Counted from the first letter of the whole stretch, positions 381 to 62,838 are shown. The stretch: DNA of 63,963 nt, filler included, from Thraustochytrium aureum (GCA_012862495.1; 9 parts of 6 records of this genome joined end to end with filler, not necessarily neighbours in it); one strand, 5' to 3'. Notes: generated by a model from the sequence alone, not told the origin. Program-made: numbers and translations.

Positions 381-2950
381 TCAGGCAGCGACTGTGAGCG
401 GCGGCGACTTGGCCCGCGTCGAGCGCGGTCGCTGCTTCCACAGTCGGCAGACGTGAAGGGCAATGATCACAGCGGTCACGAACAAGGCGAGGATGCAGGC
501 CACGGTGAGGAGACCGAGTTGGACCCCTGTCAAGCGGAAACCAGTGGCCGCGGAGTCAAGGGCTTGGGGTTCCCTGTCGTCGACAATGATGGATCCGGAG
601 ATGACGAGCGCAAAGGGCTGCGGGCCCTGGTTGACTGCAAAACCCTCAACGGTGACGGTGTAGTTGCCGGGCTCGAGGTCACTTGGGAGCAAGACCACCT
701 TCTCGACAGTGTTGAGCGAATCGCGCTGGTCGAGGCCGTTGGGGTAAAACCGGTCTCCGTTGGGACCGAGCACGACCAGGTCAAGGTCGTTGACGAGGGT
801 AATCGCTGCAGACGACGACCCTGGTGGGTCGAACCAGACCAGTGTTGCTTGGAGAGCACGCGACGCAGCGCCGTGCGGCACAACCACCGAGTGCGAAACC
901 GTCTCGCCCGTTGCGTTGACCGTCGGCATCGCCTCCATAGATCCCTGCAAGAAGACCGAGTGCTGGACAGTGTTGCCGCCAAGAAGGAGCACGCGGTCGA
1001 GCTGGACGCGGCCGAATCCTTGGTGGGGCTCGACACTGCCCGTGAGTGGCCTCACGCGCCCCACCCAGCCGTCCATTGGCTGCGCCGCGTGCACGAGGAT
1101 CGCCTTGACGAGCGCCCCCATCGGGCGCAGCCCAGGAGAGCGCGACTGCGCCCCCCTTGGGTAAAAGCCCTCTTGCAGGAACTGGCGGACGATCGCTGCA
1201 CTGCCTGCCACCAGCGGCGTCGACATGCTTGTGCCAGACTTGTCCAGCGTCTTGCAGGCACCCGCAGTCGAAGTTGGCGCAGCAGCGAACGCAGAAGTGA
1301 CGCCGACCCCCGGGGCGACAAGGTCGGGCTTGATTCGACCGTCAAAGGCCGGGCCAGCGCTCGAAAAGTCGGCGAGGTTGTTCATGCAGGGCACGTCAGC
1401 GTTTGGGTACGGACATGCGAGGCCTGCGCGCGCGTGGCGCGACGAGGGCTCCGCGCTCGCTCCAACAGCGAGACAGTTTTTACTCAGACTCGGCGAGCCA
1501 ACGACCCAAGCTCTGGCCCGTCGTTCCCAGCAGCCACCACGACCAGCATCTCCTGGTTCGCGAACGTAAAGCGGTCGATGTCACGGCAGTCAGCCGTGTA
1601 AGAGTTGGTCGCGCTGCCCCACGAGTTGACATGCACCGTGGCGTTGACCCGCGCTGCGGTCTCGAACATGATGTCCAGCTCCAGCGGGGGATAGACACGG
1701 ACTTGCTCTTCCTCTGGCGCGATGTCGAAAAACGCGAGCCGCGCACCCCATGCGATCCCGAAACTGCCCTGTGAGGAGGCGGCGGGGTCTGATGCGTCGA
1801 CGACGCCCGCCACGGAGCCGGCCACGTGCGTGCCGTGACCGCCCTCGCGGTCCACTCCGTCCTGGTATGCAGCGTACTGGACAAGCTTGCGGTGGTTCGG
1901 CGTCTCGATCACCGATCCGCGAGTCCGAGCCGCGCGCGCGGCAGCTTCGTCGACGCTGCTATCCGCGAAGAAGCAGCTCAGGCTATCGAGCCCCGAGTCG
2001 GCCACGCCGACGACCTGGCCTTTGCCGGACAGCCCCGCCGCCCAGAATGTGCCTAGTGCGAGGACTGCCGGCGCGGTCTCGTCCCCTGGAAGCTTGTCAG
2101 TGCCATTTTGGATCACGAGAGACGAGTAGTAGTTGCTCGTGAACGACGCAAAGACTGGCTCGACGAAGAGGGCCTCTGGCTCGTTGGCGAGGATGTCCAG
2201 GTCTAGGAGCGCGTCGCTTACCGCTCCGCTGACCAGGATTGAGCGTCGATCCGTGCCCAGCGGCGACCCGTCGTCGGCGCGCAGGTGCCGCCCAACCGCA
2301 AAGCGCACCGACTTACGTGGCGCACTTGCATCTGCAAGGCGCCTCCGGCGATCGTGTTTGCGCTGCCAGCGCGCAGCTATCCGGCGAGCGCTCGAGACTG
2401 CGCTGGGCGCCAAAATCACGCGCCTCATCCCAAAGCTGCTGTCGCTTGGCAAGGGTGGCACCCTGAGGAGCGGCGAGAGCTTTAGGGCGGGCGGCAATGC
2501 GCAAGCAAAGTCTATCCCACGCACCTCGCTCGCGAGGCGCTCCCAGGTCGTGTCTAGCACGGCAAACGCGGCGCCGCTGCAGTAGAGTCGTTCTTGCGTC
2601 GTCATGCCCGAGGCGCTCGCCGACAAGGCCGCGCTGTCAGAAACGCGAACCAGAAACGCGGCTGGTCTTGCTGGCCCCAACGCGTCCTGGACGGCCAAGG
2701 CGGCCTCGCGGAAGGCTTGCGCTTCTGGAAAGGCTGCAATCCACACCTGCCCGGCTCCGGACTCACAGGCTTGCCGCTCGTAGATGGGCACAAGGTTGCG
2801 TCCCTTGACGCAGGCCGCCATGGTCAGCATGCAAGCCTTGGAGAGGACGTCGAACACGTGCCCAAACGTGGCCTCCTCCTGCAGCGCCCGCGCGCCGGCG
2901 CCACCACAGAACAAAGTCGCAAACGCGAGGGCAGCAGTCCTTGCGCGCAT
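381..2950 (-). CDS. Membrane-anchored subtilisin-like serine protease (peptidase S8, KP-43-like), copy 1; one apparent 1-nt frameshift near 1498
   Basis: Signal peptide MRARTAALAFATLF; triad motifs VGVADSG, GHGTHVAGS, SGTSMSTP; oxyanion AAGN; C-terminal LVWFDPP..LVNDLDL domain and TM helix. ORFs 1484-2950 and 381-1394 join into GSLGSPSLSKNCLAVGAS if one G is added at TTGG(G)CTCG. Confidence 0.93.
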
Positions 2951-3892
2951 CGGCCCGGCCAGCGCGACTTTGTCGCTCGGGAGTGCGTGTCCGAGTCGTC
3001 AGCCGGTCCGAGCCCCAGCTGGCTGGCTGGTTTGTTTGCACGGCGCGTGAAGCGATGATGCTGCATAGCACAGTTCACGAATGAATGGGTCGGAGTCGGC
3101 GCGTGCGCACACCATGTGCAAGGCTCGGCTTCGAACATTCAAGAAAGAGAAGGTCCTGCGAGGCCGTGGGGGATCCGACACGGAGCTGGGGGTCCTCGTT
3201 GATGTGGCCATGATCGCGATTCTTGCGGGTGCTCTCGCCGGAGCTGGAAGCAAGGAGGATTTGCTGGAAGGTTGGCCAGCCAAGCCTCCCGAAGAAGCCT
3301 CCTTGTTGGACGCGCTGCGGCGCGCGAGCGCCGAGCTCGCGGACAAGACTTCAATCAAGGAGGATCCTCCTTGCTTCAATCTCCAATGGACTGCAAATCG
3401 TCGTGCCCTTCTTCTTCCTCGACGAGCTGCGACGATCCGCACGTTGAAGGAAGGGTTGCGCAAAGCGAGACTTGCCTTCGTGTTACGGAAATTTGGCTGT
3501 GACAACCGCGAGCCATGGGGCGGTAAAAATCAACCGTAACATACGCCCCGCCAACCCACCTACCCCGCCCCAAATTTCGGTGCACACTGCCGCCCAGGAG
3601 GGGCTCCTCGGGATTAACTCGCCTCGCTCGGCGTCCCGCCGGCGCGCGTCGGCGCTCGCCGCGGTACGAACAGGTTGGGGTTAGCTCGTTGGTTTCCCCA
3701 GGCGTGCATGCTCGGCATCATGAATGGCAAGTACTCCTCAGATACGTACTTACTCTCTGCATGTACACAAACGCGGAACTTGGCAGTGGCGATGCCAGTG
3801 GCGAGATGCCAGGCAGAGCTGCAACTGGCCGCGGCGGAGCGCAGCAGAGCGCAGCAGAGCGCAGCAGAGCAGAGCCGAGGTCGGAGAGGCGG

Positions 3893-6664
3893 ATGAGATG
3901 GACGGGGTGGGCGCGGCGCTGCGGCGCGGCCGCGATGGCCGCGGCGGCAGTGTGGGTTCCAGGCGGGAACGCGCGACTTGGTGACGACGGGTCGGTCGAA
4001 GTGTGGACTCGGGTGCACGAAGCTCTGACTGGGTGCATGCTGACGCTCGCGTGGTGCACGAATGAGGACGGGGACAGGGTGCTGCCGCATGCGACGCCGG
4101 AGAAGTGCCGGGCTGGTGGGTTTCGGTGGAAGACGAGGTTTGCGAACGCCGAGCAGATCAAGGCCGCATCGAGAAGCGCGCTCGAGCGCATCGAGGGCGC
4201 CGAGGGGAGGCGCGGCGTCTTTATCGCGCGCGTGGCACCTGGCCAGGAACAGGTCGCGATGGATGCCGCCACCGAACTGGCCGCCTCGCCTCCACTCCGG
4301 TGCGAGAAGGGCGTGTTCCTGCTGCTGGACGGTACACCTGAGTCGACAAGCAGCATCGATGGTATCGACTTTGTCNNNNNNNNNNNNNNNNNNNNNNNNN
4401 NNNNNNNNNNNNNNNNNNNNNNNNNNNNNNNNNNCATCGATGGTATCGACTTTGTCGCGGCGCTGCCAGCGGCCCTCAAGATAGCGCCAGACCTGGAGGC
4501 GTACGAGCGCAAGGCGGAGCTGCGCGGCAAGACGTTAGAGCGGCGCATCGTCCTCTCGCACAAGACTGACGCGACGCGGGCAGCTCAGGTGCTGCGCAAG
4601 TGGCAGGGGGCTCACGCTAGGCGACTGTTGTCTGGCGAGTCTGCCAGCCATGTCTCCGTCACGCTCGGTCGCGCCCTCCAAGGCGTGGACGGGTCGCGCA
4701 TCGAGCCGAAGTCGCACTATCTGTTTTTGTCGAGCGCGGCGGGCACCGCGCACGAGCTCGATCTGTTCGCTCAAGAGACCGAAGCCCTGTTCGTGGAGCC
4801 CATGTATGAAATGAAGACGTCCAACCTGGACGCGGCGCTCGTGACGCACTCGGGCATAAACGCAGTGGCCGGGTCCTCGAGCGTAGATGACTCGTTGAGC
4901 ACGATGTGGTCACGCGGAATCGACGGCGCTGGCGAGGTTGTTGGCGTCGGCGATAGCGGTCTCGATGTGGCGCACTGCTACTTTCGGGACGACTCTAAGA
5001 ACGACATCCAGCTCCGCGACACAAGGGAACCCGGCAAGTACTACAATGACCTGACGCACCGGAAGGTTGTCCAGTACGCAGTTCAGCAGAGTACTGACGC
5101 GTACGACGCTCGTGCCGGACACGGAACACACGTTGCAGGAAGCGTAGCTGGGTTCCCAGCGGATGTGAACGACCCGAAGACGAACGCGGGTGGCGCAACG
5201 AAGGACAAAGGGATGGCCCCGAAGGCCAGGCTCGCGATCTTTGATATGGGCGTCGCGGCCGACCCAAACTCAATCTTTCCGCCATCTTCGCTGGACATTA
5301 TGTTTGACATTGCCTACAAGGACCCTGTCGGGGCGCGCATCCACACCAACTCGTGGGGGGCCGATTCCAACACTTACTCGTCAGATGCCCTCGACATCGA
5401 CGAGTACTTGTTCGAGCACCAAGACATGGTTGTTCTGGTCGCCGCGGGGAACGCGAATGAGGCGCCTGGCGGATCGCTCGGCACTCCGGCAACCGCCAAG
5501 AGTTGTATCAGCGTCGGGGCAACGCTTAACACTGAACGCTCATTCTGGCGCATTGGTTCGACCTGCGCCGAGTCGTCGCCCGGCCTGCCCTGCACGCAAA
5601 ACCTGGCCAGCTTCTCCAGTAACGGCCCTTCCTACGACGGACGCATTAAACCAGAGGTGGTCGCGCCGGGCTATTTCATTATCTCGGCCTCGGGCGGCGC
5701 GCCCGGTACTGGCACAAATGAGGAGCAAAAAACGTGCTCGGTGCGTCAGTCGGCAGGAACAAGCATGGCGACGCCCGTAGTCGCTGGCAATGTTGCGCTT
5801 CTTCGGCATGCTCTACGGACTGGCTTTCACCCCACAGGGTTTGCTCGCGCCCAAGACGGGTTTCTGCCAATGGGCGCTCTTCTCAAGGGCCTGATCATTC
5901 ATGCCGCAGAGCCACTCGTTGGCCGCTACGGCAGGCGCTCTCTTGATGGCAAGGTCAACAACTTTAGCGGGTTTGGGCTGCCACAGCTTGATCGCGTCTT
6001 ACCGGTGGCCGACCCTGCCTCAAAGCGTTCCGTGTTTCTCGATGGCGACATGGCAGCAATGCCCGTGGTCGCGTCGCTGAGGGACGAGAAGGTGTACACT
6101 TTTTCTGTGCCAGCTTCGTCTGCGGGCGCTGCCGACTTGCGCGTGACCCTGGTCTGGTACGATCCCGCCTCCTCGCGGGTCGCAAGCAGAGCGCTTGTGA
6201 ACAACCTCGACCTTGTTGTGTCGACCCCTGCTGGCGAGCAAGTGTTTCCGAATGGACTCTCGACCGAGGACAACGTCAATACCGTCGAGCAGGTCACCAT
6301 TCCTGCCGAGTCTGTAGTCACCGGGACATATACGGTCAAGGTTGTTGCTTCGGCCTTGGTTTCTGCGCAACCCTATTCGCTCGTCGTTTCAGGTCCATTC
6401 ACAAGCGAGCAGCCTGAAGGGGTAGACGAAAGCCAGGTCGCCAACGCGAGCAACGACGATCGTGAGGAGTCGGGCGTGTCTGTGGCTATCCTAGGCATAG
6501 TCGGTGGAGTCGTGGTGGGCATCGCCATCGCCAGCGCTGTGTTTGTTACAGCGCGCCGCCGCCGCCGGGAGCAGGACCTAGCGCGTGCCCCCCCGGTCGC
6601 CACGATTGTTGCAGGCATGGGCACGCCGTACTCGCCCTCCTCGCCGTACTATACCAGAGCGTAG
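3893..6664 (+). CDS. Membrane-anchored subtilisin-like serine protease (S8, KP-43-like), copy 2
   Basis: Motifs VGVGDSG, GHGTHVAGS, AAGN, AGTSMATP, LVWYDP..LVNNLDL; C-terminal TM helix (VAILGIVGGVVVGIAIASAVFV) followed by an Arg run; co-linear with copy 1. The internal N gap is flanked by an identical 22-mer. Confidence 0.94.
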   Translation: MRWTGWARRCGAAAMAAAAVWVPGGNARLGDDGSVEVWTRVHEALTGCMLTLAWCTNEDGDRVLPHATPEKCRAGGFRWKTRFANAEQIKAASRSALERIEGAEGRRGVFIARVAPGQEQVAMDAATELAASPPLRCEKGVFLLLDGTPESTSSIDGIDFVXXXXXXXXXXXXXXXXXXXXIDGIDFVAALPAALKIAPDLEAYERKAELRGKTLERRIVLSHKTDATRAAQVLRKWQGAHARRLLSGESASHVSVTLGRALQGVDGSRIEPKSHYLFLSSAAGTAHELDLFAQETEALFVEPMYEMKTSNLDAALVTHSGINAVAGSSSVDDSLSTMWSRGIDGAGEVVGVGDSGLDVAHCYFRDDSKNDIQLRDTREPGKYYNDLTHRKVVQYAVQQSTDAYDARAGHGTHVAGSVAGFPADVNDPKTNAGGATKDKGMAPKARLAIFDMGVAADPNSIFPPSSLDIMFDIAYKDPVGARIHTNSWGADSNTYSSDALDIDEYLFEHQDMVVLVAAGNANEAPGGSLGTPATAKSCISVGATLNTERSFWRIGSTCAESSPGLPCTQNLASFSSNGPSYDGRIKPEVVAPGYFIISASGGAPGTGTNEEQKTCSVRQSAGTSMATPVVAGNVALLRHALRTGFHPTGFARAQDGFLPMGALLKGLIIHAAEPLVGRYGRRSLDGKVNNFSGFGLPQLDRVLPVADPASKRSVFLDGDMAAMPVVASLRDEKVYTFSVPASSAGAADLRVTLVWYDPASSRVASRALVNNLDLVVSTPAGEQVFPNGLSTEDNVNTVEQVTIPAESVVTGTYTVKVVASALVSAQPYSLVVSGPFTSEQPEGVDESQVANASNDDREESGVSVAILGIVGGVVVGIAIASAVFVTARRRRREQDLARAPPVATIVAGMGTPYSPSSPYYTRA

Positions 6665-32464: not shown

Positions 32465-32805
32465 CAAACCATGTGATCCGCGAAACATCTTCCAACTGTT
32501 TTGCACCATGTAGTAGGTAGATAGATGTGCCATTGCCGAAGACAGATGCCCAAAACAGATTGAACGACAGCAAACCACAAACTCATCGCAGCCTGACTTG
32601 GTACGACAGCGACGTGCGAACTCAACGCAGCCAACACGAATCCGAACCATTAAACGACGCTTAAACGCCGCCCCACTGCGCATCACTCACCAGCGTCTAG
32701 GAGCGCACAACTAACGCCTCAACACTACGCATCACTCAACACCGTCCAGGAACGCACAATTTACGTCTAACCAACAGCACAGCAGTCTATCAACTGCGCT
32801 CGAAA

Positions 32806-35800
32806 ATGGCGAACTGGACTCGGGTTCCACGACGCAACGACGCATTGGTGAATCTTGACACATTCATTGCAGCCGAACACATCTCTGGTCTCAAACAAGG
32901 AAACGTTGGAGGTAAGTTGACGCTCGACGGCATGCTAAAGGTTTGCCCACACTGCAATGCGCAGCTTTACGACTGCGAAACATTCCAATTGTGCTGCAAG
33001 AATGGTGCTGTCGAAATGCCGCAGCGCGAGACGCCGCCCGAGCCACTATTGAGCCTCTTCACCGGTCAAAACCAGACTGCACGGCATTTTAGAAAAAATA
33101 TTTTGGCATACAACAGCTGTCATGCCTTTACCAGTCTTGGAACCTACCATGACGGGCAAATCGACGGCATCAACTCACGCGGCATTTTTACCTTCCGAGT
33201 CCGGGGGCAGCTTTGTCATCGGATAGGAGACCTCACTCCACGCGAAGGCGATCCGCCTAAATTCTCCCAGATCTACATGCTCACACCTGAAGACCAAGTC
33301 GAACGGCGGACGACTATCATGGACGGCTTGGACAGGGACGTGGTGGAGGCACTTACGAACTGCCTCGAACAGGTCAATCCATTTGTGCACGTGTTTCGCA
33401 ATACTCGCGAGGTTTTGCAGGATGTTCTGCTCAATAACAATGTCGTCCGGTTCAACACAGATGGCCTCGATATCCGTCGCTACAATGCACCGATGAGGGA
33501 CGACGTCATTGGGGCTGTTGTTGTTGATGATGGCTCCTCTTCTTGGCGCGACATTATTTTGCGACCCCGGCACAACCCAGAACCCCTTCCTCAAGCCCAA
33601 CTCGGCGAAGACGTTGATCCGCTGGAATTTCAAGGACAACCAGTCCCGCAAGACCATGGTGGGCTGCGTCGCGTCAGCGAGCTCCACGCTGCTTATGGCC
33701 CTTTACAGTACCCTCTCCTCTTTCCACGTGGAGAACTTGGTTGGTCTCCAGATAATGCAGGACATGGATTGACCTGCCGCGCACACTCAGCGTATGAACT
33801 TCACCAGCGCATCGACGATAATGGACAGCGACTGTTCAACATCCTGCACAACGCTGGCCGTCTCTTTCAGGTCTACCTCACGGACCTCGGTGCGAAGTAT
33901 GAGACAACGAAACTTGCGTATATTCGGAGAAACCAGGAGCAGCTTCGCATAGAGCACTATGCCGGGGCGGTTGATGCAATTGGGGAAGGAAACGTCAACA
34001 AGATTGGTGTTCTCCTGCCTGCATCCTTTCACACCAACGAACGCGCATGTCTCGGACGCTACCTGGACAGCATGGAGTATGTTCGCGAGTTTCAAAAGCC
34101 CACGTTCTTTATCACGATGACGTGCAACCCGAAGTGGACTGAGATACAGCGCGAGCTCCTGCCCCATCAAACCGCGCAGGACCGACCCGACATCGTTGTT
34201 CGGGTTTTCAACTACAAGTTGCGGCAGCTCATCGCAGACCTGACAAATAAGGGAGTTCTCGGGCGCCACGTCGCCCACAACTACACGATCGAGTTCCAGA
34301 AACGAGGCCTACCGCACGCCCACATTCTCCTCTGGACAGACTTTGTTGTCAACGTACAAGTCGAACACTTGGATCTTGCCCCGAATGACCCCCAGGAAAT
34401 CCTGCTTTGGCTGGCGGCGCAAGACGCGGCGCTGGCGCATCAGAGCACACCAATCAACAGAGCNNNNNNNNNNNNNNNNNNNNNNNNNNNNNNNNNNNNN
34501 NNNNNNNNNNNNNNNNNNNNNNNNNNNNNNNNNNNNNNNNNNNNNNNNNNNNNNNNNNNNNNNNNNNNNNNNNNNNNNNNNNNNNNNNNNNNNNNNNNNN
34601 NNNNNNNNNNNNNNNNNNNNNNNNNNNNNNNGCGGAGATTCCTGACTCTGAAACACAGCCCGAGTTGTTCGCTGCTGTACAGGCGCACATGATCCACGGC
34701 CCGTGCGGCGTCGTCAATGAGGGCTCACCGTGCATGCGTGACGGTGTCTGCTCGAAGAACTTTCCTAAGGACTTTTGCCAGCATACCACAGCGGGCGCTG
34801 GCTATCCAACCTACAGGCGCTTGGAAAACGGCAGGACGTGCGAGATTGCCAGGGGCCACGGCGAGCCGTTCCTCGCTGACAACCGCTGGGTGGTGCCGTA
34901 CAATCCCTACCTTCTACTCAAGTACGATTGCCACATCAACGTCGAATACTGCTCCTCCGTCACAGCTATTGCCTACATTCACAAGTACATCCACAAAGGC
35001 GGGGACAGAGCCCGCATAACTGTCGAAAGTGGTGCCGACGACGGTGGAAACAATGAGGCACGCGACGAGATCAAGGAGTACCTTCAAGGTCGCTGGATAT
35101 GCCCCCAGTACGCTGCATGGCGGATCTTTGAATTCAACATCCACGGAAGATCACACTCTGTCACTCTCCTGCCTGTTCACCTCCCAAACTATCAGGCCAT
35201 CCTTTTACCTGACGACGCGGCGCCCCATGAACTGCAGCATCTTCTTCAGAACCCGCCCGCCTCGAAGCTCATGGCCTTCTTCGAGCTCTGTCAGCGCGAC
35301 GCAGACGGCGACGAGGAGCCCCAGCATGATCATGCAAACGACGTCCGGCCTTTGAACATAAAGTACCACCAACTCCCAAAGTACTTCAAGTGGGACGCGC
35401 AAGGAAAGTCCTGGGAGCGTCGAAAACGCAACATCAAGGTCTTGGCGCGGATGCCTATGGTATTGCCCAGCCAAGGCGAGCGCTTCTACTTGCGACTTCT
35501 CTTGACGAATGTTAACGGCCCGACGAGCTTCGAAGCACTTCGGACCGTGAATGAACATCTGTGCGAAACGTTCAAAGAGGCTTGCTTACGACGGGGCATT
35601 CTCGAGAACGACGCCCAGTGGACTGAGACGATGGAGCAAGCCGCCGTCTACGGCAACCCGCGCCGCCTCCGTCACCTTTTCGCATCCCTCCTCATTTTCT
35701 GCTCGCCAGCAGAGCCCGCAGTTCTCTTCCACGCGTTCGAAGAGCGCATGTCGCACGACATTGCAGCTCGGTTTCAGCCTGGCGATGCTCGGATTCGTGC

Positions 35801-37436
35801 CGAGCTGGCTCTGGACATACACGGGCGGCTAATGAAACACGGCATGACTTGGAATGCAATCCCGGGGTTCGACCAATTCGACTTTGACGAGATCGCTGAA
35901 GATCCCGACTTTGGCAGTCTCTTACACGCAGAGCTCAACCACGACCACGACCCTGCCCAAGTTGACAACTCTATCGCGCAACTCAACGATGGACAGCAAG
36001 CAGTATTTGACCAGGTCGTCGCGACAGTGAATGGTGACATACCGAACGGTCGCCGCCTCTTCTTTCTCGACGCCCCGGGGGGCTACGGGAAAACTTTCCT
36101 TTACGACGCAATCGCTGGCCGTCTGCGACTTCAGAACAAGGTCGTTCTGATGGTCGCGTCGTCCGGGATTGCAGCGTATCTTCTCAAAGGTGGGAGGACC
36201 GCTCACTCGCGTTTTCGTATCCCTATCCAGCTTGACGGGGAGTCCTTCTGCAACATTCCGGCCCAATCTGATGTCTGTGCCCTCTTGAAGGAGACCGTAC
36301 TAATCATTTGGGACGAGGCTCCAATGATGCATCGACACGCGCTTGAGGCCGTGGACCGCACTCTTCGTGACCTCTGTGATGACCAACGCCGGTTTGGTGG
36401 TCGCGTGGTTCTCGCAGGGGGAGACTTTCGCCAAATCCTGCCAGTTGTACCGGGAGGAAGTCCTGCTGATGTTATTTCCGCAACTTTTTGCAAGTCTCAA
36501 CTTTGGCGCCACTTCGAGATTAAGCGCCTCTACGTCAACATGCGAGCAGCGCAAGACCCGCAGTTCGCATCCTTTCTATTGCGTATTGGAGATGGTCTAT
36601 GTGGGGCGTTTCGGGTTGGTGACCAAGACCCGCAGCATCCCGATCATCCTTTTCTGCGAGCTGTCAACGACATCGACGCACTTATTGCGGATACTTTCCC
36701 AAATCTCGATGAGAACTTTGCCGACGCAAACTTTCTTATGGACCGGGTTATCCTCTCATCAAGAAACAAAGACGTTGACGAAATCAACGAGCGCATCTCT
36801 GCAAAGATAAGAACCGGGGGCGATGCGAGGCTTTTCCGCAGCATCGACTCTGTTGACAGTCGTGGACCTCTCGGTGCCAATCTCCTCGCCCTCCCTGCTG
36901 AGTACCTCAACACCCTCAGCATTAGCGGCCTGCCGCCGCACAAACTCCAGCTCAAGGTGGGCATGCCCATTATGCTCTTACGCAATATGGATCCCGCAAA
37001 CGGCCTCTGCAACGGTACGAGGCTAATTTTGCGCGGAATTCAGAATAGGGTTCTCGATGCCGAAATCGCTGTGGGAGCCAATGCAGGCCAGCGCGTGTAC
37101 ATTCCACGCATGTCTCTCACCAGCAATGACATCCGTCTTCCGTTTACGCTGGCACGCAACCAGTTCCCTGTGCGACCCTGTTTTGCAATGACTATCAACA
37201 AGTCACAAGGCCAGACCCTGTCCAAGGTCGGGCTCGATCTCCGCTCTCAAGTCTTTACACACGGTCAGCTGTACGTTGCGCTCTCTCGGGTAAGAAGCTC
37301 TGCGGATATAGCGGTTCTTGCGCCGAACAACATTGTTCGCAATGTCGTGTACCAAGAAGTCCTTCGCAACAACAACAACAACAACAACAACCAACAACCC
37401 GCCCACATTCCTGCCGCGGGTCAACTCCCTCCCTGA
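32806..37436 (+). CDS. Helitron RepHel (HUH endonuclease + PIF1-family helicase), interrupted by an N gap at 34464-34631
   Basis: Zn motif CPHC..CCKNG; FITMTCNPKW; EFQKRGLPHAHILLW (HUH); YIHKYIHKG (catalytic Tyr pair); DAPGGYGKT; IIWDEAPM; AMTINKSQGQT; HGQLYVALSRV. Confidence 0.96.
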
Positions 37437-58578: not shown

Positions 58579-58683
58579 NNNNNNNNNNNNNNNNNNNNNN
58601 NNNNNNNNNNNNNNNNNNNNNNTTAATTAATTAANNNNNNNNNNNNNNNNNNNNNNNNNNNNNNNNNNNNNNNNNNNNATATC

Positions 58684-58771
58684 TAGATACCTACTAAACT
58701 CCCCTTAAGGGGAGTTTAGTTGTAACGGAAATATTGTGTCCGATGCATAAGCTCCCCTTAAGGGGAGTTTA
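58684..58771. repeat. Left end: terminal TAGATACC, perfect 28-bp palindrome (58693-58720), TGTCCGATGC box (58737-58746), second palindrome (58748-58771)
   Basis: ACTAAACTCCCCTTAAGGGGAGTTTAGT is its own reverse complement. Confidence 0.92.
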
Positions 58772-58960
58772 CATGGCCAGATCGCAGCACTTCCCCTCCA
58801 CGTATCACAGCCAGTGATTTGGGTAGACCTTGCAGATTTCCGCAAGTCGTGGAGGACAGCCCAGACAGCGATCCTGCAATTCGGTTTGGCCCAGTGCACA
58901 GCACGGGGCACGCGGTGCGCGATCGGGGGGGGGGTGCGGAGCCTAGTTACAAGGTGAAGG

Positions 58961-61900
58961 ATGAGCCAGTCGAGCTCCTCGAGCGCAGCGGCGCCAGGCG
59001 AGGAGCTGTGCAGCGCGTGTGGGGAGTCTGGGCATCGTGACGCACGTAGCTCAAAGTGCCGCTTGCGCGGCCAACGCGGGAAGAGGCGGGCCAGAACTCA
59101 TGGAGATGAGTCGCTCAAGGTGCCGGAACCCGCAGCTAGCCAAGCTTCGGAAGCGGGCGCTGCTCCGCCTCGTCCGAAGGAATTTCACGAGTCATGGACG
59201 AAGCTTCCACTTCTCGAGCCCGTTGTTGTCACACCAGACGAGGCTACGAAGCTCATCGGCCTCGATGAGCGGGCACATGAGCATGTGAAGGAGATGATCA
59301 ATCGCCTTGAAAGTTCATGGCAGCGCAAGGGCGTGCACAACCCAGAGGAATTGAAGATTGACCAGCTCTTTCTGTTCGTGCTTGGCGACGCTCAAGGCAA
59401 ACTTGTAGAGTGGATGAACGAGCGCATCAACATTCTCAAGCTACCCAGGCGAGCTGTTGAGCCCTGGGAATTCATGGCGTTTCTTGGCATGCTTTTCATG
59501 ACTTGTGCTCTTGATGTGGAGAAGAGCATCGCCTTCCGGATTTTTCGAACCTACATGTCAGACATCGGGACGCACGTCGAGAATGTGCATCTCAGCGAGA
59601 CGCGATTCAATGAAATCCAGCAGGTTCTGTGCGGATTTGAGCCTCAGGTGGTGGCTTCCGCAAGCGACCATGCGGACGTCACGAACGATGCTGCTCGTTT
59701 TGGAGAACTCGACCGATGTATGTCGCGCTACACGATGAAAACTGTCCTTGACAACTCCATCCGCATCACCATAGACGATCGCAACCTCGCCACCGTGTCG
59801 GCATCAAACCCGACAAACACGTACCGGCCGCGCAAGCGCCACAAGAACGGGGCAGGCTCCGACTGTGCTGCAGACGCCATGCTGCGCATCGTCCTTCTCA
59901 ACGTGCTTTTCACGAGCACGTACAACCAAGTCCAAGTGCTCGAGGACATACTAGACAGGATTGCCGACGTTCTGGGCGATGTTTCTGGCGTCGAGGTTTG
60001 CTTGGACCGTGGCTACCCAAGTGTTGGCCTGTACAGGCTTTGCGCGCGGAAGGGCTTCGATCTCATCACGATCAACGACAAAGAAAGGCAGCAGGGCAAC
60101 CCCTTCTTGTCCGAAACGGCGCTTCGAGATCGCGCGACCAAGTTGAAGGCGCGAGATTGCGAGATGAGCCCAGCCCAGTGTGACTTGGACAAGAAGTTTG
60201 TTGTTGCGGACGACGCGCAACTGGGAATGCGCATCTTTGCTGCGAAGAAGAGCCTATCAAAGGGCTCGAACAGGACCGTTTGGGCTTATGCTTTTGCTGT
60301 TCGAGAATTCGGTGACGCGAAGGCTACCTACGTCCACCGCTTCATCACGATGTTGGACCCTCACGTGATGGAAAAGTTTCGAACACACTACGTGATGGAG
60401 CTCCTACCTCGAGTGTCGGATGCGCTTGCGTCGACCTGGTTGTTTTATCCTGGCAGGACCACAGCTGCACAATGCGCTAATGACGCAAACCTTGGAAGCG
60501 ACGAGGACGGCGCGGGCAGCGACGTTGGCGAAGGACAATTTGGCACTCAGTATTCTGGAGCAAATTTGAGCGACGCAGAGGCCGAGTATGGGAGCCAGGA
60601 CAGCGGGGACGAGGAGGGCGAGAGAAGCACCAGCTGCTCAGACGCGGAGTATGAAGTTGAAGAGACTCTCCCTTCTCCGAACAATCAAGCTGACGAGAGT
60701 TTGGGTCAAGACAGGCACGCTGCCCGCGATGCCCCCGCCGCTGCCCATGTACGCCTTGAAGCGGCCTCAGACACCGATGATCCAGTCGACGAGGAAGCGA
60801 AGGAAACAGGTGCCTCTCGATGCGAAGTGTCCGTCAACAAACTCGCGCGACGCCAAGCCGACGGAGGAGGCGGCAATGTGTCCACTGAGCTGCAGGAAGA
60901 AACGGAGCCGGCTGGTGGAAGTTTGGATGGCGGGCGCTTCAGATGCTCTGCCCCAGAGGAGCTTGTCCGAGATTCTGTCGAAGCATTGCTACTCGAGAAT
61001 GTGGTTCCGTTAACCGCAGGTCAGCGCTGTGCGGATTGGTTCCAGTTCAGAACCTTCCTTGTCACTGGAACAACGGCGCAAGACATTGCTTCTCGAAACG
61101 AGCTCGTGCGCCCTGTTCTGGTGGAGAACCACTCACGCAGCCAACCTGGGCAGTTGACACGTCAAGAGGTCGCTACCAAGCTCTTCAACAGCTGGTTCCA
61201 CGTCAAGAAGTCCATGGGCAGCAAAGCAAACCGTGCCATGATCGCTGGGTCTCGGAATGAGAGCGCTGTCGTCGCCCAGCTCAAGAAGCAGGCCCACGTT
61301 GCGGCCGTTTTTGAGGTTGGCCTTGTGCAGAGCAAAGAGTACGAGCACCTCGGCGTGAGCGCAGACAATATCATCGCGATTCGGCCACCGAACGAAGAGA
61401 AGCAAGAGCTCCTCCTTGCCCCGCTCGAAATCAAAACGAAGGTCGCCATGCGGACACGAGATGGACCAAGACGCGTCCGCAAAAGGTACGGCTCCTACTT
61501 CTCGTGCACAGTGGGTTCCAAGCTCTGGTTCGAAGCTGTTCCGCCCGAGTATCGCGGCCAGCTTATCCAACAGGCTGTCGTCTTTGGTCGGTCTTGCGGG
61601 GTATTTTGCATGGCCACGGAGACAACGATTTTTTACACCGTGCTCATCAGGTACACTGCGTCGGTTCTGAAAAACTGGATCGCTGCCTTTGAGCCTGTTC
61701 GCGACCTTACGGCTTGGGCCTGGAGTGCTGTTGACTCTACTGAGCGTCCAGTTCTTCCCGCACAAGCTTTTACCGCGGAGCAGGCCGCTGTGGTAAGGTC
61801 CAAGTTTCCGATGTGGCGCGCCTTGCACAAGAAGCGCAAGAGCTTCGGGGGTGTTCTTCCACCCATCCGTCTCCTTCGCTCCCTGATCCAGCTGTACTAT

Positions 61901-62566
61901 AGCAAGGGGAAGCAAGGCGTAGATGGGGCAGACGACTTCGCGGAGTTTTTCAACACGCGTGCGCTGAAGGTTGGATGGGAGAAGAAGGTCACGATCGGTC
62001 GACTCGTCGATGCGGTGACCCAAACGTGCATCCTCTGGCGCCTCTACAAGACCTACACGGGAATGAAGAGGAGACACGCGCCGTGGACCGGCCTCAAACC
62101 GTTTCTGGCGCGGTGCAGCAGACTTGCACCTTTGAAGAGCTTGGCCATCACCCTCGCGATGGCGCTCATGGAGAGAGCTTACATGATGAGGAGCCCGCAG
62201 CCACAGGCTGCACCATGTGAAGACGGTGACACTCATAGGCACGCCAAGTCTAGCAGACTCACGAGCGAAGAACACGCGCAGCTCAGGATCCCAAACGGGA
62301 AGCGGAACGTTTTGGCGATGGCAAACCAGGACAACGTCAAGCGGCTTCGTCTCTCCTCGAACGCTCACTATGCCGAGCGTGATGGCTCTCGGACCTGCGT
62401 CGTGTGCTCCACTAACGCGAAAACCAGGTGCAAGTTTTGCAACGTCCAACTGCACACGAGGCTCAAGCATTCGACGAGCCAGAGACGGTCTTGTTGGGAC
62501 CAGTGGCACTTGAACGACACTGTCAAGAAGCGCGACCTCCACAAGAAAGAAAAGAAAACAACTTGA
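58961..62566 (+). CDS. 1201-aa piggyBac-like DDD transposase with N-terminal zinc knuckle, inserted YqaJ/lambda-exonuclease-like domain and C-terminal Cys-rich domain
   Basis: CSACGESGHRDARSSKC; ITID272D; CLD349RGY; YYSKGKQGVD988GAD991; insert QRCADWFQFR..VTGT..MIAGSRNE..EVGL..GVSAD..LEIKT..YRGQLIQQ; tail CVVC..RCKFCNVQLH..CWDQWH. Confidence 0.88.
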   Translation: MSQSSSSSAAAPGEELCSACGESGHRDARSSKCRLRGQRGKRRARTHGDESLKVPEPAASQASEAGAAPPRPKEFHESWTKLPLLEPVVVTPDEATKLIGLDERAHEHVKEMINRLESSWQRKGVHNPEELKIDQLFLFVLGDAQGKLVEWMNERINILKLPRRAVEPWEFMAFLGMLFMTCALDVEKSIAFRIFRTYMSDIGTHVENVHLSETRFNEIQQVLCGFEPQVVASASDHADVTNDAARFGELDRCMSRYTMKTVLDNSIRITIDDRNLATVSASNPTNTYRPRKRHKNGAGSDCAADAMLRIVLLNVLFTSTYNQVQVLEDILDRIADVLGDVSGVEVCLDRGYPSVGLYRLCARKGFDLITINDKERQQGNPFLSETALRDRATKLKARDCEMSPAQCDLDKKFVVADDAQLGMRIFAAKKSLSKGSNRTVWAYAFAVREFGDAKATYVHRFITMLDPHVMEKFRTHYVMELLPRVSDALASTWLFYPGRTTAAQCANDANLGSDEDGAGSDVGEGQFGTQYSGANLSDAEAEYGSQDSGDEEGERSTSCSDAEYEVEETLPSPNNQADESLGQDRHAARDAPAAAHVRLEAASDTDDPVDEEAKETGASRCEVSVNKLARRQADGGGGNVSTELQEETEPAGGSLDGGRFRCSAPEELVRDSVEALLLENVVPLTAGQRCADWFQFRTFLVTGTTAQDIASRNELVRPVLVENHSRSQPGQLTRQEVATKLFNSWFHVKKSMGSKANRAMIAGSRNESAVVAQLKKQAHVAAVFEVGLVQSKEYEHLGVSADNIIAIRPPNEEKQELLLAPLEIKTKVAMRTRDGPRRVRKRYGSYFSCTVGSKLWFEAVPPEYRGQLIQQAVVFGRSCGVFCMATETTIFYTVLIRYTASVLKNWIAAFEPVRDLTAWAWSAVDSTERPVLPAQAFTAEQAAVVRSKFPMWRALHKKRKSFGGVLPPIRLLRSLIQLYYSKGKQGVDGADDFAEFFNTRALKVGWEKKVTIGRLVDAVTQTCILWRLYKTYTGMKRRHAPWTGLKPFLARCSRLAPLKSLAITLAMALMERAYMMRSPQPQAAPCEDGDTHRHAKSSRLTSEEHAQLRIPNGKRNVLAMANQDNVKRLRLSSNAHYAERDGSRTCVVCSTNAKTRCKFCNVQLHTRLKHSTSQRRSCWDQWHLNDTVKKRDLHKKEKKTT

Positions 62567-62703
62567 TTGATTGAATTTGACGATCTCTACGATCGATGGT
62601 CGAGCTTGCTTGATCGCATGCACCGTCGTTTTGGCTCCAGACCAAGGCGGCCTCTTGGAATGGATCCCAGGACGAACGTCTTTCGGCAACCTTTTTCGCT
62701 AAT

Positions 62704-62838
62704 TAAAAGCTACCTTTAAGGGGAGTTTAGAAAAAAAGGCATCGGACAGAGATTTTCTCCGGCTCTGCGCCCAAGGTGATAGTTTCCCTATGAATCACCT
62801 AAACTCCCCTTAAAGGGAACTTAGGTTCTCGGCATCTA
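62704..62838. repeat. Right end: degenerate palindrome (~62704-62730), GCATCGGACA box (62739-62748), palindrome (62797-62826), terminal GGCATCTA
   Basis: Mirror image of the left-end motif order. Confidence 0.9.

What the first reader, a model, noticed from the sequence alone, without database searches (positions are those of the whole stretch)
58683..62838. piggyBac-like transposon whose transposase carries a complete YqaJ/lambda-exonuclease domain inside the DDD core
Seen: one intact intronless 1201-aa ORF. D272 (ITIDD) and D349 (LDRGY) are 77 aa apart, but the third motif YYSKGKQGVD988GAD991 lies 639 aa after D349. Established: T. ni piggyBac uses D268, D346 and D447 (YNQTKGGVDTLD) and ends in a Cys-rich domain, also present here (CVVC..CKFC..H..C...H). 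The extra ~540 aa comprise an acidic linker (~60480-60960) and a domain with ordered YqaJ/lambda-exonuclease motifs: Q688RCADWFQFR..VTGT, GSRNE767, EVGL..GVSAD802, E823IK825, YRGQ867. The PD-(D/E)XK catalytic residues look retained. Inference: a two-nuclease transposase in which a 5'-3' exonuclease may resect ends, steer donor-site repair or aid integration. Exonuclease domains are reported in some other DNA-transposon groups (e.g. some Kolobok lineages), but I do not know this nested architecture from characterised piggyBacs.
Basis: partly seen in the sequence, partly recalled or inferred. Interest (0 to 1): 0.92.

Follow-up and report, generated by a model that had tools for sequence, protein, structure and literature searches.

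The report
ATAT-targeting piggyBac with nested lambda exonuclease
This is a near-complete piggyBac-like jumping gene whose intact transposase gene has a phage-lambda-type DNA-chewing domain built into the predicted catalytic core, and whose family sits at ATAT rather than TTAA sites; the extra domain likely chews back the DNA ends left after excision, which would steer repair toward copying the element back.

Summary
Confirmed and extended. Contig 58679-62838 is almost exactly one transposon: ATAT, a short terminal repeat, two 24-bp palindromes per end and an intact 1201-aa ORF. A family profile matches T. ni piggyBac (E 3e-20). In the AlphaFold model (pLDDT 82) the two halves superpose on it as one fold (Z 27.6) and the insert on lambda exonuclease (Z 14.7), with catalytic and 5'-phosphate-pocket residues kept. 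It is no chimera: 397 related 50%-clusters were found; among the best 150, 45 of 46 proteins with both core halves carry the exonuclease at the same place. Trees of the two domains agree, and both active sites are mostly kept or lost together. Best model (inferred, about 0.4): the exonuclease resects donor ends, blocking seamless rejoining and favouring copy-back repair. Ten literature searches found no description, but nested or fused nucleases are known in Dada and KolobokE, and this may be Repbase's piggyBacX (recalled, untestable here). This scan noted the same architecture on other DNA. New variant of a known kind.

The parts
58679..58682 (.). ATAT target tetranucleotide at the left end (probable half of a 4-bp target-site duplication)
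   Evidence: Sequence. The same 4-mer lies 11-15 nt outside the outer palindrome at 11 of 13 readable ends. Run X1 joins a different flank here with TTAT, and X6 extends past it with 8 unlike letters.
58683..58691 (+). Left terminal inverted repeat CTAGATACC
   Evidence: 8 of 9 match to the reverse complement of the right contig end, whose last base is missing
58695..58718 (.). Left outer 24-bp perfect palindrome; likely binding site of a dimer of the Cys-rich domain
   Evidence: 3 window matches at up to 3 mismatches, 0 expected. Role inferred from the T. ni 19-bp palindrome (PMC7351741).
58737..58746 (+). 10-bp subterminal motif TGTCCGATGC before the inner palindrome; inverted copy at 62739-62748
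   Evidence: Read directly from sequence
58748..58771 (.). Left inner palindrome, 53 bp after the outer one
   Evidence: Paired palindromes 50-57 bp apart also in loci L001-L004, L011, L015, L023.
58961..62566 (+). Intact 1201-aa transposase-exonuclease ORF
59009..59059 (+). Zinc-knuckle-like motif (res 17-33)
   Evidence: Pattern in P0001, P0002, P0005, P0008, P0018; function untested
59348..59746 (+). N-terminal half of the helical dimerisation/DNA-binding domain (about res 130-262)
   Evidence: Profile alignment to 6x67 residues 134-307; structural alignment
59747..60445 (+). RNase H-like core strands 1-5 with D272 (59774) and D349 (60005), followed by a three-strand insertion domain (about res 263-495)
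   Evidence: D272 aligns with T. ni D268 and D349 with the piggyBat DNYY aspartate. D272 in 50 of 58 and D349 in 45 of 50 rows with a residue. Secondary structure.
60458..60940 (+). Acidic, predicted-disordered linker (24% D+E), lineage-specific
   Evidence: pLDDT below 50; composition; 2-41 aa in 39 of 45 relatives
60998..61825 (+). YqaJ/lambda-exonuclease domain (about res 680-955): W693, R697, T702-G-T704, E767, D802, E823, K825, Y864, Q867
   Evidence: Pfam YqaJ. Z 14.7, rmsd 3.4, 206 of 225 residues against lambda exonuclease 1avq. Residue mapping to lambda W24, R28, T33-S35, E85, D119, E129, K131, Y154, Q157 (weak alignment, probability 17.5). Conservation.
61838..62185 (+). Final catalytic helix with Y980 and D988 (61922), and C-terminal half of the dimerisation/DNA-binding domain
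   Evidence: Aligns with T. ni Y439 and D447. D988 in 77 of 91 and Y980 in 74 of 85.
62348..62530 (+). C-terminal cysteine-rich (cross-brace zinc finger-like) domain
   Evidence: Profile alignment to the piggyBat and T. ni C-termini; Cys/His conserved
62706..62729 (.). Right inner imperfect palindrome
   Evidence: Repeat family D2
62800..62823 (.). Right outer imperfect palindrome
62831..62838 (-). Right terminal inverted repeat (GGCATCTA), cut by the contig end; last base and target site not in the window

Best explanation
This is a piggyBac-related DNA transposon with an intact transposase gene and ATAT at its end, whose predicted catalytic core carries a lambda-type 5'-3' exonuclease domain that likely resects the broken donor DNA after excision, so that the gap would be repaired by copying the element back from the sister chromatid. 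Shown: architecture, conserved residues of both active sites, predicted folds, end anatomy, ATAT flanks, joint inheritance of the two domains. Inferred from T. ni piggyBac: a transposase dimer binds the ends (Cys-rich domains on the palindromes), nicks the 3' ends, forms hairpins containing the 4-nt target, and integrates at ATAT with a 4-bp duplication. That chemistry leaves self-complementary 4-nt overhangs on the donor flanks, which normally rejoin seamlessly (PMC7351741); that they are 5'-phosphorylated is recalled. Inferred: the exonuclease hangs off the insertion domain, which in piggyBac lines the target-DNA channel. It would load on those 5'-phosphates, remove the overhangs and expose 3' tails, turning seamless loss into homology-directed restoration and a net gain in copy number. 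Identity of the element about 0.95; nuclease active and needed in the transposition cycle about 0.8; this specific role about 0.4.
For: Profile A2 matches 6x67 at E 3.3e-20 and 9c0f at 6.3e-12. The model (pLDDT 81.8, pTM 0.75) aligns residues 15-972 onto 6x67 126-526 (Z 27.6, rmsd 3.7, 378 aligned). Integrase cores of about 120-135 residues align across model 151-915, so the RNase H core is built from both sides of the insert. The insert aligns to lambda exonuclease (Z 14.7). The end-loading pocket is conserved: W693 69 of 70, R/K697 68 of 71, T/S702 71 of 73. So are the catalytic residues: E767 84 of 89, D802 89 of 96, E823 94 of 103, K825 90 of 103. Of 37 near-full-length members, 27 keep both sites, 7 have lost both, 2 only DDD and 1 only the exonuclease site. 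All 10 well-supported core-tree splits recur in the exonuclease tree, and all 8 the other way. The insert lies after strand 5 and the beta insertion domain, which in piggyBac lines the target-DNA channel. Hairpin-contacting Y439 is kept as Y980. ATAT is palindromic, so seamless rejoining would be possible without resection.
Against: No activity was measured. Lambda exonuclease is a processive ring-shaped trimer that starts poorly on 5' overhangs (recalled), whereas a transposase dimer would present two domains. Residues near lambda R45 are not conserved in the alignment (window position 712: R in 17 of 70). No empty donor or pre-insertion site was seen, so neither the duplication nor any excision footprint is shown. 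Joint loss of both sites also fits general decay or domestication of a few related copies (P0006, P0012, P0018 form one clade). The window copy has A801 where the family often has P before D802.
Confidence: 0.45

Rival explanations
1. The PD-(D/E)XK domain does part of the cutting itself: the DDD core nicks and transfers the 3' ends, and the insert cuts or trims the non-transferred strand (as TnsA does for Tn7, recalled), replacing or finishing hairpin opening.
For: The insert is always at the same internal position in catalytically complete members (45 of 45) and is co-inherited with the core. It lies next to the flank/target channel. Kojima's group links nuclease versus helicase partners to TSD length in Academ (PMC10045372 passage).
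Against: The 5'-phosphate pocket typical of end-loading exonucleases is conserved. The hairpin-contacting Tyr and the fixed palindromic 4-bp target typical of hairpin chemistry are kept.
Confidence: 0.25
2. The exonuclease acts at the integration site: it trims the 4-nt 5' flaps on the transposon ends or mismatched overhangs at imperfect targets, or resects to recruit repair.
For: Two imperfect flanks were seen: TTAT in run X1 and ATAA at the right end of L015. The domain is placed beside target DNA.
Against: 11 of 13 readable ends have perfect ATAT, where canonical piggyBac needs only ligation.
Confidence: 0.15
3. The domain is a regulator or passenger: it destroys excised, unintegrated copies or competitor DNA, or mainly binds DNA, and is dispensable for transposition.
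For: Canonical piggyBacs transpose without it. Accessory nucleases of several kinds recur across superfamilies.
Against: No member with a complete DDD core lacked the domain among the 150 best hits (a set biased by the query). Catalytic residues are about 90% conserved across about 25% identity.
Confidence: 0.12
4. The ORF is an assembly chimera or a one-off insertion of a viral gene into a dead piggyBac.
For: The contig is short and has no flanks. No single piece from another run spans it.
Against: 45 independent proteins and 8 of 25 metagenome loci have the same order in one ORF. Pieces from other runs bridge the core-linker join (X2, 60368-60518) and the exonuclease-D988 join (X1, 61638-61986).
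Confidence: 0.01

Closest known systems
piggyBac of Trichoplusia ni (PDB 6x67/6x68) and piggyBat of Myotis (PDB 9c0f); Pfam PF13843
   Same: Helical dimerisation/DNA-binding domain split around an RNase H-like DDD core, three-strand insertion domain after strand 5, Y..K.G.D third motif, C-terminal Cys-rich domain, C/CCC termini, subterminal palindromes, palindromic 4-bp target
   Different: A ~280-aa lambda-exonuclease module between the insertion domain and the last catalytic helix (second-to-third aspartate 639 aa versus 101); ATAT instead of TTAA; only 13-14% structural-alignment identity
Repbase piggyBacX / RepeatMasker DNA/PiggyBac-X (recalled)
   Same: Recalled as a divergent piggyBac group from red algae and oomycetes with ATAT/ATGT duplications. 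The label occurs in a Plasmodiophora brassicae annotation, a species that has a member of this family (P0024). The nearest Atlas cluster is commonest in Oomycota (phylum known for only 2 members).
   Different: Cannot be compared: no Repbase sequence or description was available. Whether piggyBacX carries a YqaJ domain is unknown to me.
Lambda exonuclease / YqaJ family (PF09588; PDB 1avq, 3sm4; LHK-Exo 3syy; mimivirus R354 5yet)
   Same: Fold (Z 14.7, 13.5 and 11.5-12.3), catalytic E/D/E/K, Y/H-x-x-Q motif and 5'-phosphate pocket
   Different: Embedded inside a transposase; no partner annealase gene in the element; oligomeric state unknown
Dada transposons of Laccaria and Ectocarpus (PMC3706591)
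   Same: An exonuclease nested inside the catalytic core, after the second aspartate
   Different: DEDDy 3'-5' exonuclease; hAT/P/MuDR/Kolobok-type DxxH core; small-RNA gene targets
KolobokE (PMC9587614) and ISL2EU (PMC4122938)
   Same: DDE transposon paired with a lambda/YqaJ-type nuclease
   Different: Nuclease lies downstream of the transposase domain (KolobokE) or in a separate ORF (ISL2EU); unrelated transposase lineages; Kolobok has RR..YY termini and TTAA

Membership tests
piggyBac superfamily (canonical) | DDD triad in an RNase H-like fold with a beta-stranded insertion domain after strand 5 | tested here: met
   profile E 3.3e-20; Z 27.6, rmsd 3.7, 378 aligned to 6x67 (predicted model)
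piggyBac superfamily (canonical) | Split helical dimerisation/DNA-binding domain and C-terminal Cys-rich domain | tested here: met
piggyBac superfamily (canonical) | TTAA target-site duplication | tested here: not met
   ATAT at 11 of 13 readable ends, TTAA at none. Both ends of L002 and L004 abut ATAT. No empty site seen.
piggyBac superfamily (canonical) | Termini beginning with C (5'-CC..GG-3') | tested here: met
   C first in 10 of 11 ends, CCC in 8 of 11; the window has CTAG
piggyBac superfamily (canonical) | Palindromic subterminal repeats bound by the Cys-rich domain | tested here: inconclusive
   Palindromes are present; binding not tested
piggyBac superfamily (canonical) | Hairpin intermediate and seamless excision | not testable with these tools
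   Only indirect: Y980 corresponds to Y439
Repbase piggyBacX | Sequence affinity to the deposited families; ATAT/ATGT duplication (recalled) | not testable with these tools
   No sequences or description held. ATAT and hosts are consistent.
YqaJ / lambda exonuclease | PF09588 score above the curated cut-off | tested here: met
   25.4 bits versus 22 on the isolated insert; 19.9 on the whole protein; 15 of 37 members hit at E up to 0.05
YqaJ / lambda exonuclease | Fold, catalytic E-D-E-K and 5'-phosphate pocket | tested here: met
   (roles of the lambda residues are recalled)
YqaJ / lambda exonuclease | Ring-shaped trimer, processive 5'-3' activity | not testable with these tools
KolobokE | Nuclease downstream of the transposase; RR..YY termini; TTAA | tested here: not met
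   Nuclease is nested; termini begin with C or T; ATAT
Kolobok / Dada / hAT group | [quoted passage not shown] | not tested
   Not searched for explicitly; best profile and fold matches are piggyBac and Tn5
ISL2EU | YqaJ in a separate ORF; THAP-bearing Harbinger-like transposase | tested here: not met
   Single ORF with a piggyBac-type core; no THAP hit among 37 members

The most novel reading that the evidence does not exclude
An undescribed, ancient, protist-wide sister lineage of piggyBac, not in Repbase with this domain recognised, in which a viral lambda-type exonuclease was grafted once into the catalytic core and became an obligate part of the transpososome. It would target ATAT and control its own donor-site repair by resection: a cut-and-paste transposase that makes itself effectively replicative, and a natural integrase-plus-resection tool.
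Probability: 0.25. Interest if true: 0.85.

Novelty: new variant of a known kind. Interest (0 to 1): 0.63.

Why it matters
How cut-and-paste elements gain copies when excision is seamless, and why unrelated eukaryotic DNA transposons keep acquiring accessory nucleases (Dada, KolobokD/E, ISL2EU), are open questions; I found no functional test of such a nuclease in the passages I read. This element offers an intact, intronless single ORF with defined ends and two separable active sites, on a scaffold with solved relatives, so the question becomes directly testable by point mutants. A piggyBac relative with ATAT specificity also tests the structural account of TTAA recognition and could widen the transposon toolkit.

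Tried and rejected
Own genome: none held; the record behind L002 is not held either, so copy number and empty sites could not be checked. Viral contigs: no relative with the single protein or the motif QR[CT]ADWF (0 of 69 candidates). Prokaryote genomes: 0 of 5 candidates. These are weak, single-motif negatives. Word-limited homologue searches found only 1, 2 and 6 proteins. The last covered only 642-2000 aa, so it could not show exonuclease-less relatives of canonical length. Single-sequence search of PDB found nothing relevant. Sequencing runs: no RNA holder listed. The eight runs laid gave only short pieces at depth 2-4; X2/X3 and X4/X5 look like the same data filed twice; no listed piece covers 60637-60978. 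End analysis: the automated paired-palindrome scan found ends in 7 of 25 loci plus the window, and L008 was added. L013, L014, L016 and L020 have flanking DNA but showed no such ends; most others are cut short. Two readable ends lacked ATAT (L015 right has ATAA; L011 right may be an inner palindrome), and two were cut by contig ends. A shorter (TAT/ATA) target, suggested by an earlier scan note, was rejected for this family: the base outside ATAT varies (A, C, G, T) while all four ATAT positions are constant in the 11 ends. No tree with canonical piggyBacs was built because no such sequences were in hand. Literature: ten searches (piggyBac+YqaJ; piggyBacX; piggyBacA; piggyBac-X; Kolobok+exonuclease+transposase+piggyBac; piggyBac+ATAT+TSD+Repbase+transposase; piggyBac+lambda exonuclease+transposon+Repbase; piggyBac structure terms; transposase+YqaJ+Phytophthora; piggyBac+PD-D+transposase+oomycete+superfamil) listed no paper describing this architecture. 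Kojima's 2019 review is not held, Repbase Reports were not searched, and the supplement of PMC5381638, which tabulates TSDs, could not be read; these may bear on novelty.


Full report
1. Observation. The window is nine contigs joined by spacers; the finding fills contig 58679-62838. On its own the protein scores only marginally in Pfam. YqaJ gives 19.9 bits on the whole protein and 25.4 on the isolated insert (cut-off 22). DDE_Tnp_1_7 gives 22.2 on the N-terminal core (cut-off 22.4).

2. A family, not a chimera. A full scan of 50%-cluster representatives found 397 relatives at E up to 0.001 (155 at 1e-10) and listed the best 150. Using profiles of each part, 46 of the 150 contain both halves of the transposase. 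Of these, 45 have the exonuclease between the halves. The one exception, P0055, lacks essentially the whole catalytic domain and keeps only DNA-binding parts. The set is biased toward exonuclease-bearing proteins because the query contained the domain. The linker before the exonuclease is 2-41 aa in 39 of 45, so the window's long acidic tract is lineage-specific. I looked up 30 of these proteins; 7 carried an organism name: Hondaea fermentalgiana (4, including the closest named one at 44% identity), Durusdinium trenchii (2) and Plasmodiophora brassicae (1). One more cluster holds MMETSP entries. The nearest Atlas cluster is a 1206-aa eukaryotic hypothetical protein (score 0.94, 56 members, commonest Oomycota, phylum known for only 2). 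The host is probably a thraustochytrid-like stramenopile; this is inferred from that closeness and was not otherwise tested. Low-depth contigs from other runs bridge the core-linker join (X2) and the exonuclease-D988 join (X1).

3. Both folds and both active sites. A profile of 37 near-full-length members matches T. ni piggyBac at E 3.3e-20 and piggyBat at 6.3e-12. It places D272 on D268, D988 on D447, Y980 on Y439, and D349 on the piggyBat DNYY aspartate. Weaker hits are mimivirus R354 (0.002) and LHK-Exo (0.012). AlphaFold2 on a 111-row alignment of residues 114-1190 gave pLDDT 81.8 and pTM 0.75, with the linker (model 387-545) and two short stretches below 50. Model residues 15-972 superpose on 6x67 residues 126-526 (Z 27.6, rmsd 3.7, 378 aligned). 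Compact integrase cores align across model 151-915, and model 565-840 matches lambda exonuclease (Z 14.7, rmsd 3.4, 206 of 225 residues). So the RNase H core is predicted to close around the insert. The order is strands 1-5, beta insertion domain, linker, exonuclease, last catalytic helix, which puts the graft at the far end of the insertion domain (372-433 in T. ni; PMC7351741 passages). I could not measure aspartate distances. A weak global alignment (probability 17.5, E 3e-4) maps lambda W24, R28, T33-S35, E85, D119, E129, K131, Y154 and Q157 to W693, R697, T702-T704, E767, D802, E823, K825, Y864 and Q867. Their roles in 5'-phosphate binding and catalysis are recalled. Conservation among rows with a residue: D272 50/58, D349 45/50, D988 77/91, W693 69/70, E767 84/89, D802 89/96, E823 94/103, K825 90/103, Q867 89/99, but D991 only 10/86. 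Viral structure, Atlas and PHROG hits for the insert are viral YqaJ/RecE-like exonucleases; these do not identify a donor.

4. Joint history. Of the 37 near-full-length members, 27 keep DDD and E-D-E-K, 7 have both broken, 2 only DDD broken and 1 only the exonuclease site broken. Fisher p is 3e-5, but related copies are not independent. In separate unrooted FastTree trees of the core (452 columns) and the exonuclease (266 columns), all 10 core splits with support of 0.95 or more occur in the exonuclease tree, and all 8 such exonuclease splits occur in the core tree. This fits one old acquisition inherited as a unit. P0006, P0012 and P0018 form a long-branch clade that has lost both sites and may be domesticated.

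5. Ends and target. Each end of the window element has two 24-bp palindromes (58695, 58748; 62706, 62800), behind a 9-bp terminal repeat CTAGATRCC. The contig begins with ATAT directly before the repeat and stops one base short on the right. A motif search of metagenomes gave 25 loci; 8 carry all four parts in one ORF. Paired palindromes 50-57 bp apart, with family-specific sequences, were found automatically in 7 of 25 loci, and an end of L008 was added. ATAT lies 11-15 nt outside the outer palindrome at 11 of 13 readable ends, against a background of 0.3-7% per position. The next base inward is C in 10 of 11 (CCC in 8), and the base outside ATAT varies. L002 (4691-10077) and L004 (43-4025) have ATAT at both ends. 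The 88%-identical L002 and L003 stop aligning exactly after the right-hand ATAT. A copy in run X1 has another flank and TTAT, which fits ATAT being target rather than element. No empty site was seen. L013, L014, L016 and L020 showed no such ends. The canonical TTAA rule (PMC5381638 passages) is therefore not met.

6. Mechanism. In T. ni piggyBac, excision goes through hairpins on the transposon ends and leaves complementary 4-nt overhangs that rejoin seamlessly. The insertion domain lines the target-DNA channel, and a Cys-rich-domain dimer binds a 19-bp palindrome. The present family keeps the hairpin-contacting tyrosine and a palindromic 4-mer, so I infer the same chemistry with ATAT. The flank ends then bear 5'-phosphates (recalled), the substrate that a lambda-type pocket loads, beside the domain to which the exonuclease is attached. 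My preferred reading (about 0.4-0.45) is resection of the donor ends. That prevents seamless closure and routes the break to homologous repair from a sister copy that still holds the element, giving net copy gain. Rivals are second-strand cutting (0.25), trimming at integration (0.15) and a dispensable or regulatory role (0.12). None is tested, and lambda exonuclease's trimeric, overhang-averse behaviour (recalled) counts against a simple transfer of its mechanism.

7. Comparison with what is known. It works like piggyBac but fails the TTAA test and has an extra domain, so I file it as a piggyBac-related lineage, not a canonical member. [quoted passage not shown] Passages of PMC5718144, PMC10045372, PMC4455052 and PMC3212892 said nothing on this architecture. 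Ten searches listed no paper describing it. However, I recall a Repbase group piggyBacX from red algae and oomycetes with ATAT/ATGT duplications. The label DNA/PiggyBac-X appears in a P. brassicae preprint (one passage), and that species has a family member. I put the chance that piggyBacX is this family at about 0.55, and could not check it. Earlier notes of this scan report the same architecture in other genomes; they are not independent support.

8. Verdict. Real, apparently intact and widespread in protists; a new variant of a known kind, possibly deposited but, in what I could search, undescribed and untested. Interest 0.63.

Noticed in passing
window 32701-37436 (+): Helitron-type Rep/helicase ORF interrupted by an N gap: Helitron_like_N (E 2e-46) and PIF1 (E 6e-63).
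   Followed up: partly
P0055 (424 aa): Relative that keeps the DNA-binding halves and Cys-rich domain but lacks essentially the whole catalytic core and the exonuclease; could be a deletion derivative acting as a repressor or a domesticated DNA-binding protein.
   Followed up: partly
P0006, P0012, P0018, P0003: A clade close to the window protein (P0006, P0012, P0018) has lost both active sites; two of them are Hondaea fermentalgiana genes, possibly domesticated. The Hondaea protein P0003 has N at the second aspartate but keeps E-D-E-K.
   Followed up: partly
L002 4687-4800: The left end carries an inward-facing second GGG-ATAT about 17 bp after the inner palindrome, so about 110 bp look like a mini-element with ATAT on both sides.
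   Followed up: no
window 58737-58746 and 62739-62748: A GATRC motif resembling the terminal repeat precedes each of the four palindromes, at different spacings left and right, suggesting repeated transposase-binding units and asymmetric ends.
   Followed up: no
L013, L014, L016 (exonuclease domain): A marine subgroup has an ~80-90-aa extra insertion inside the exonuclease domain and no recognisable palindromic ends; P0010 and P0134 also have much longer exonuclease spans.
   Followed up: no
window 381-6664: Three neighbouring subtilisin-like protease ORFs, judged by eye from their motifs, one with a C-terminal membrane-like segment.
   Followed up: no
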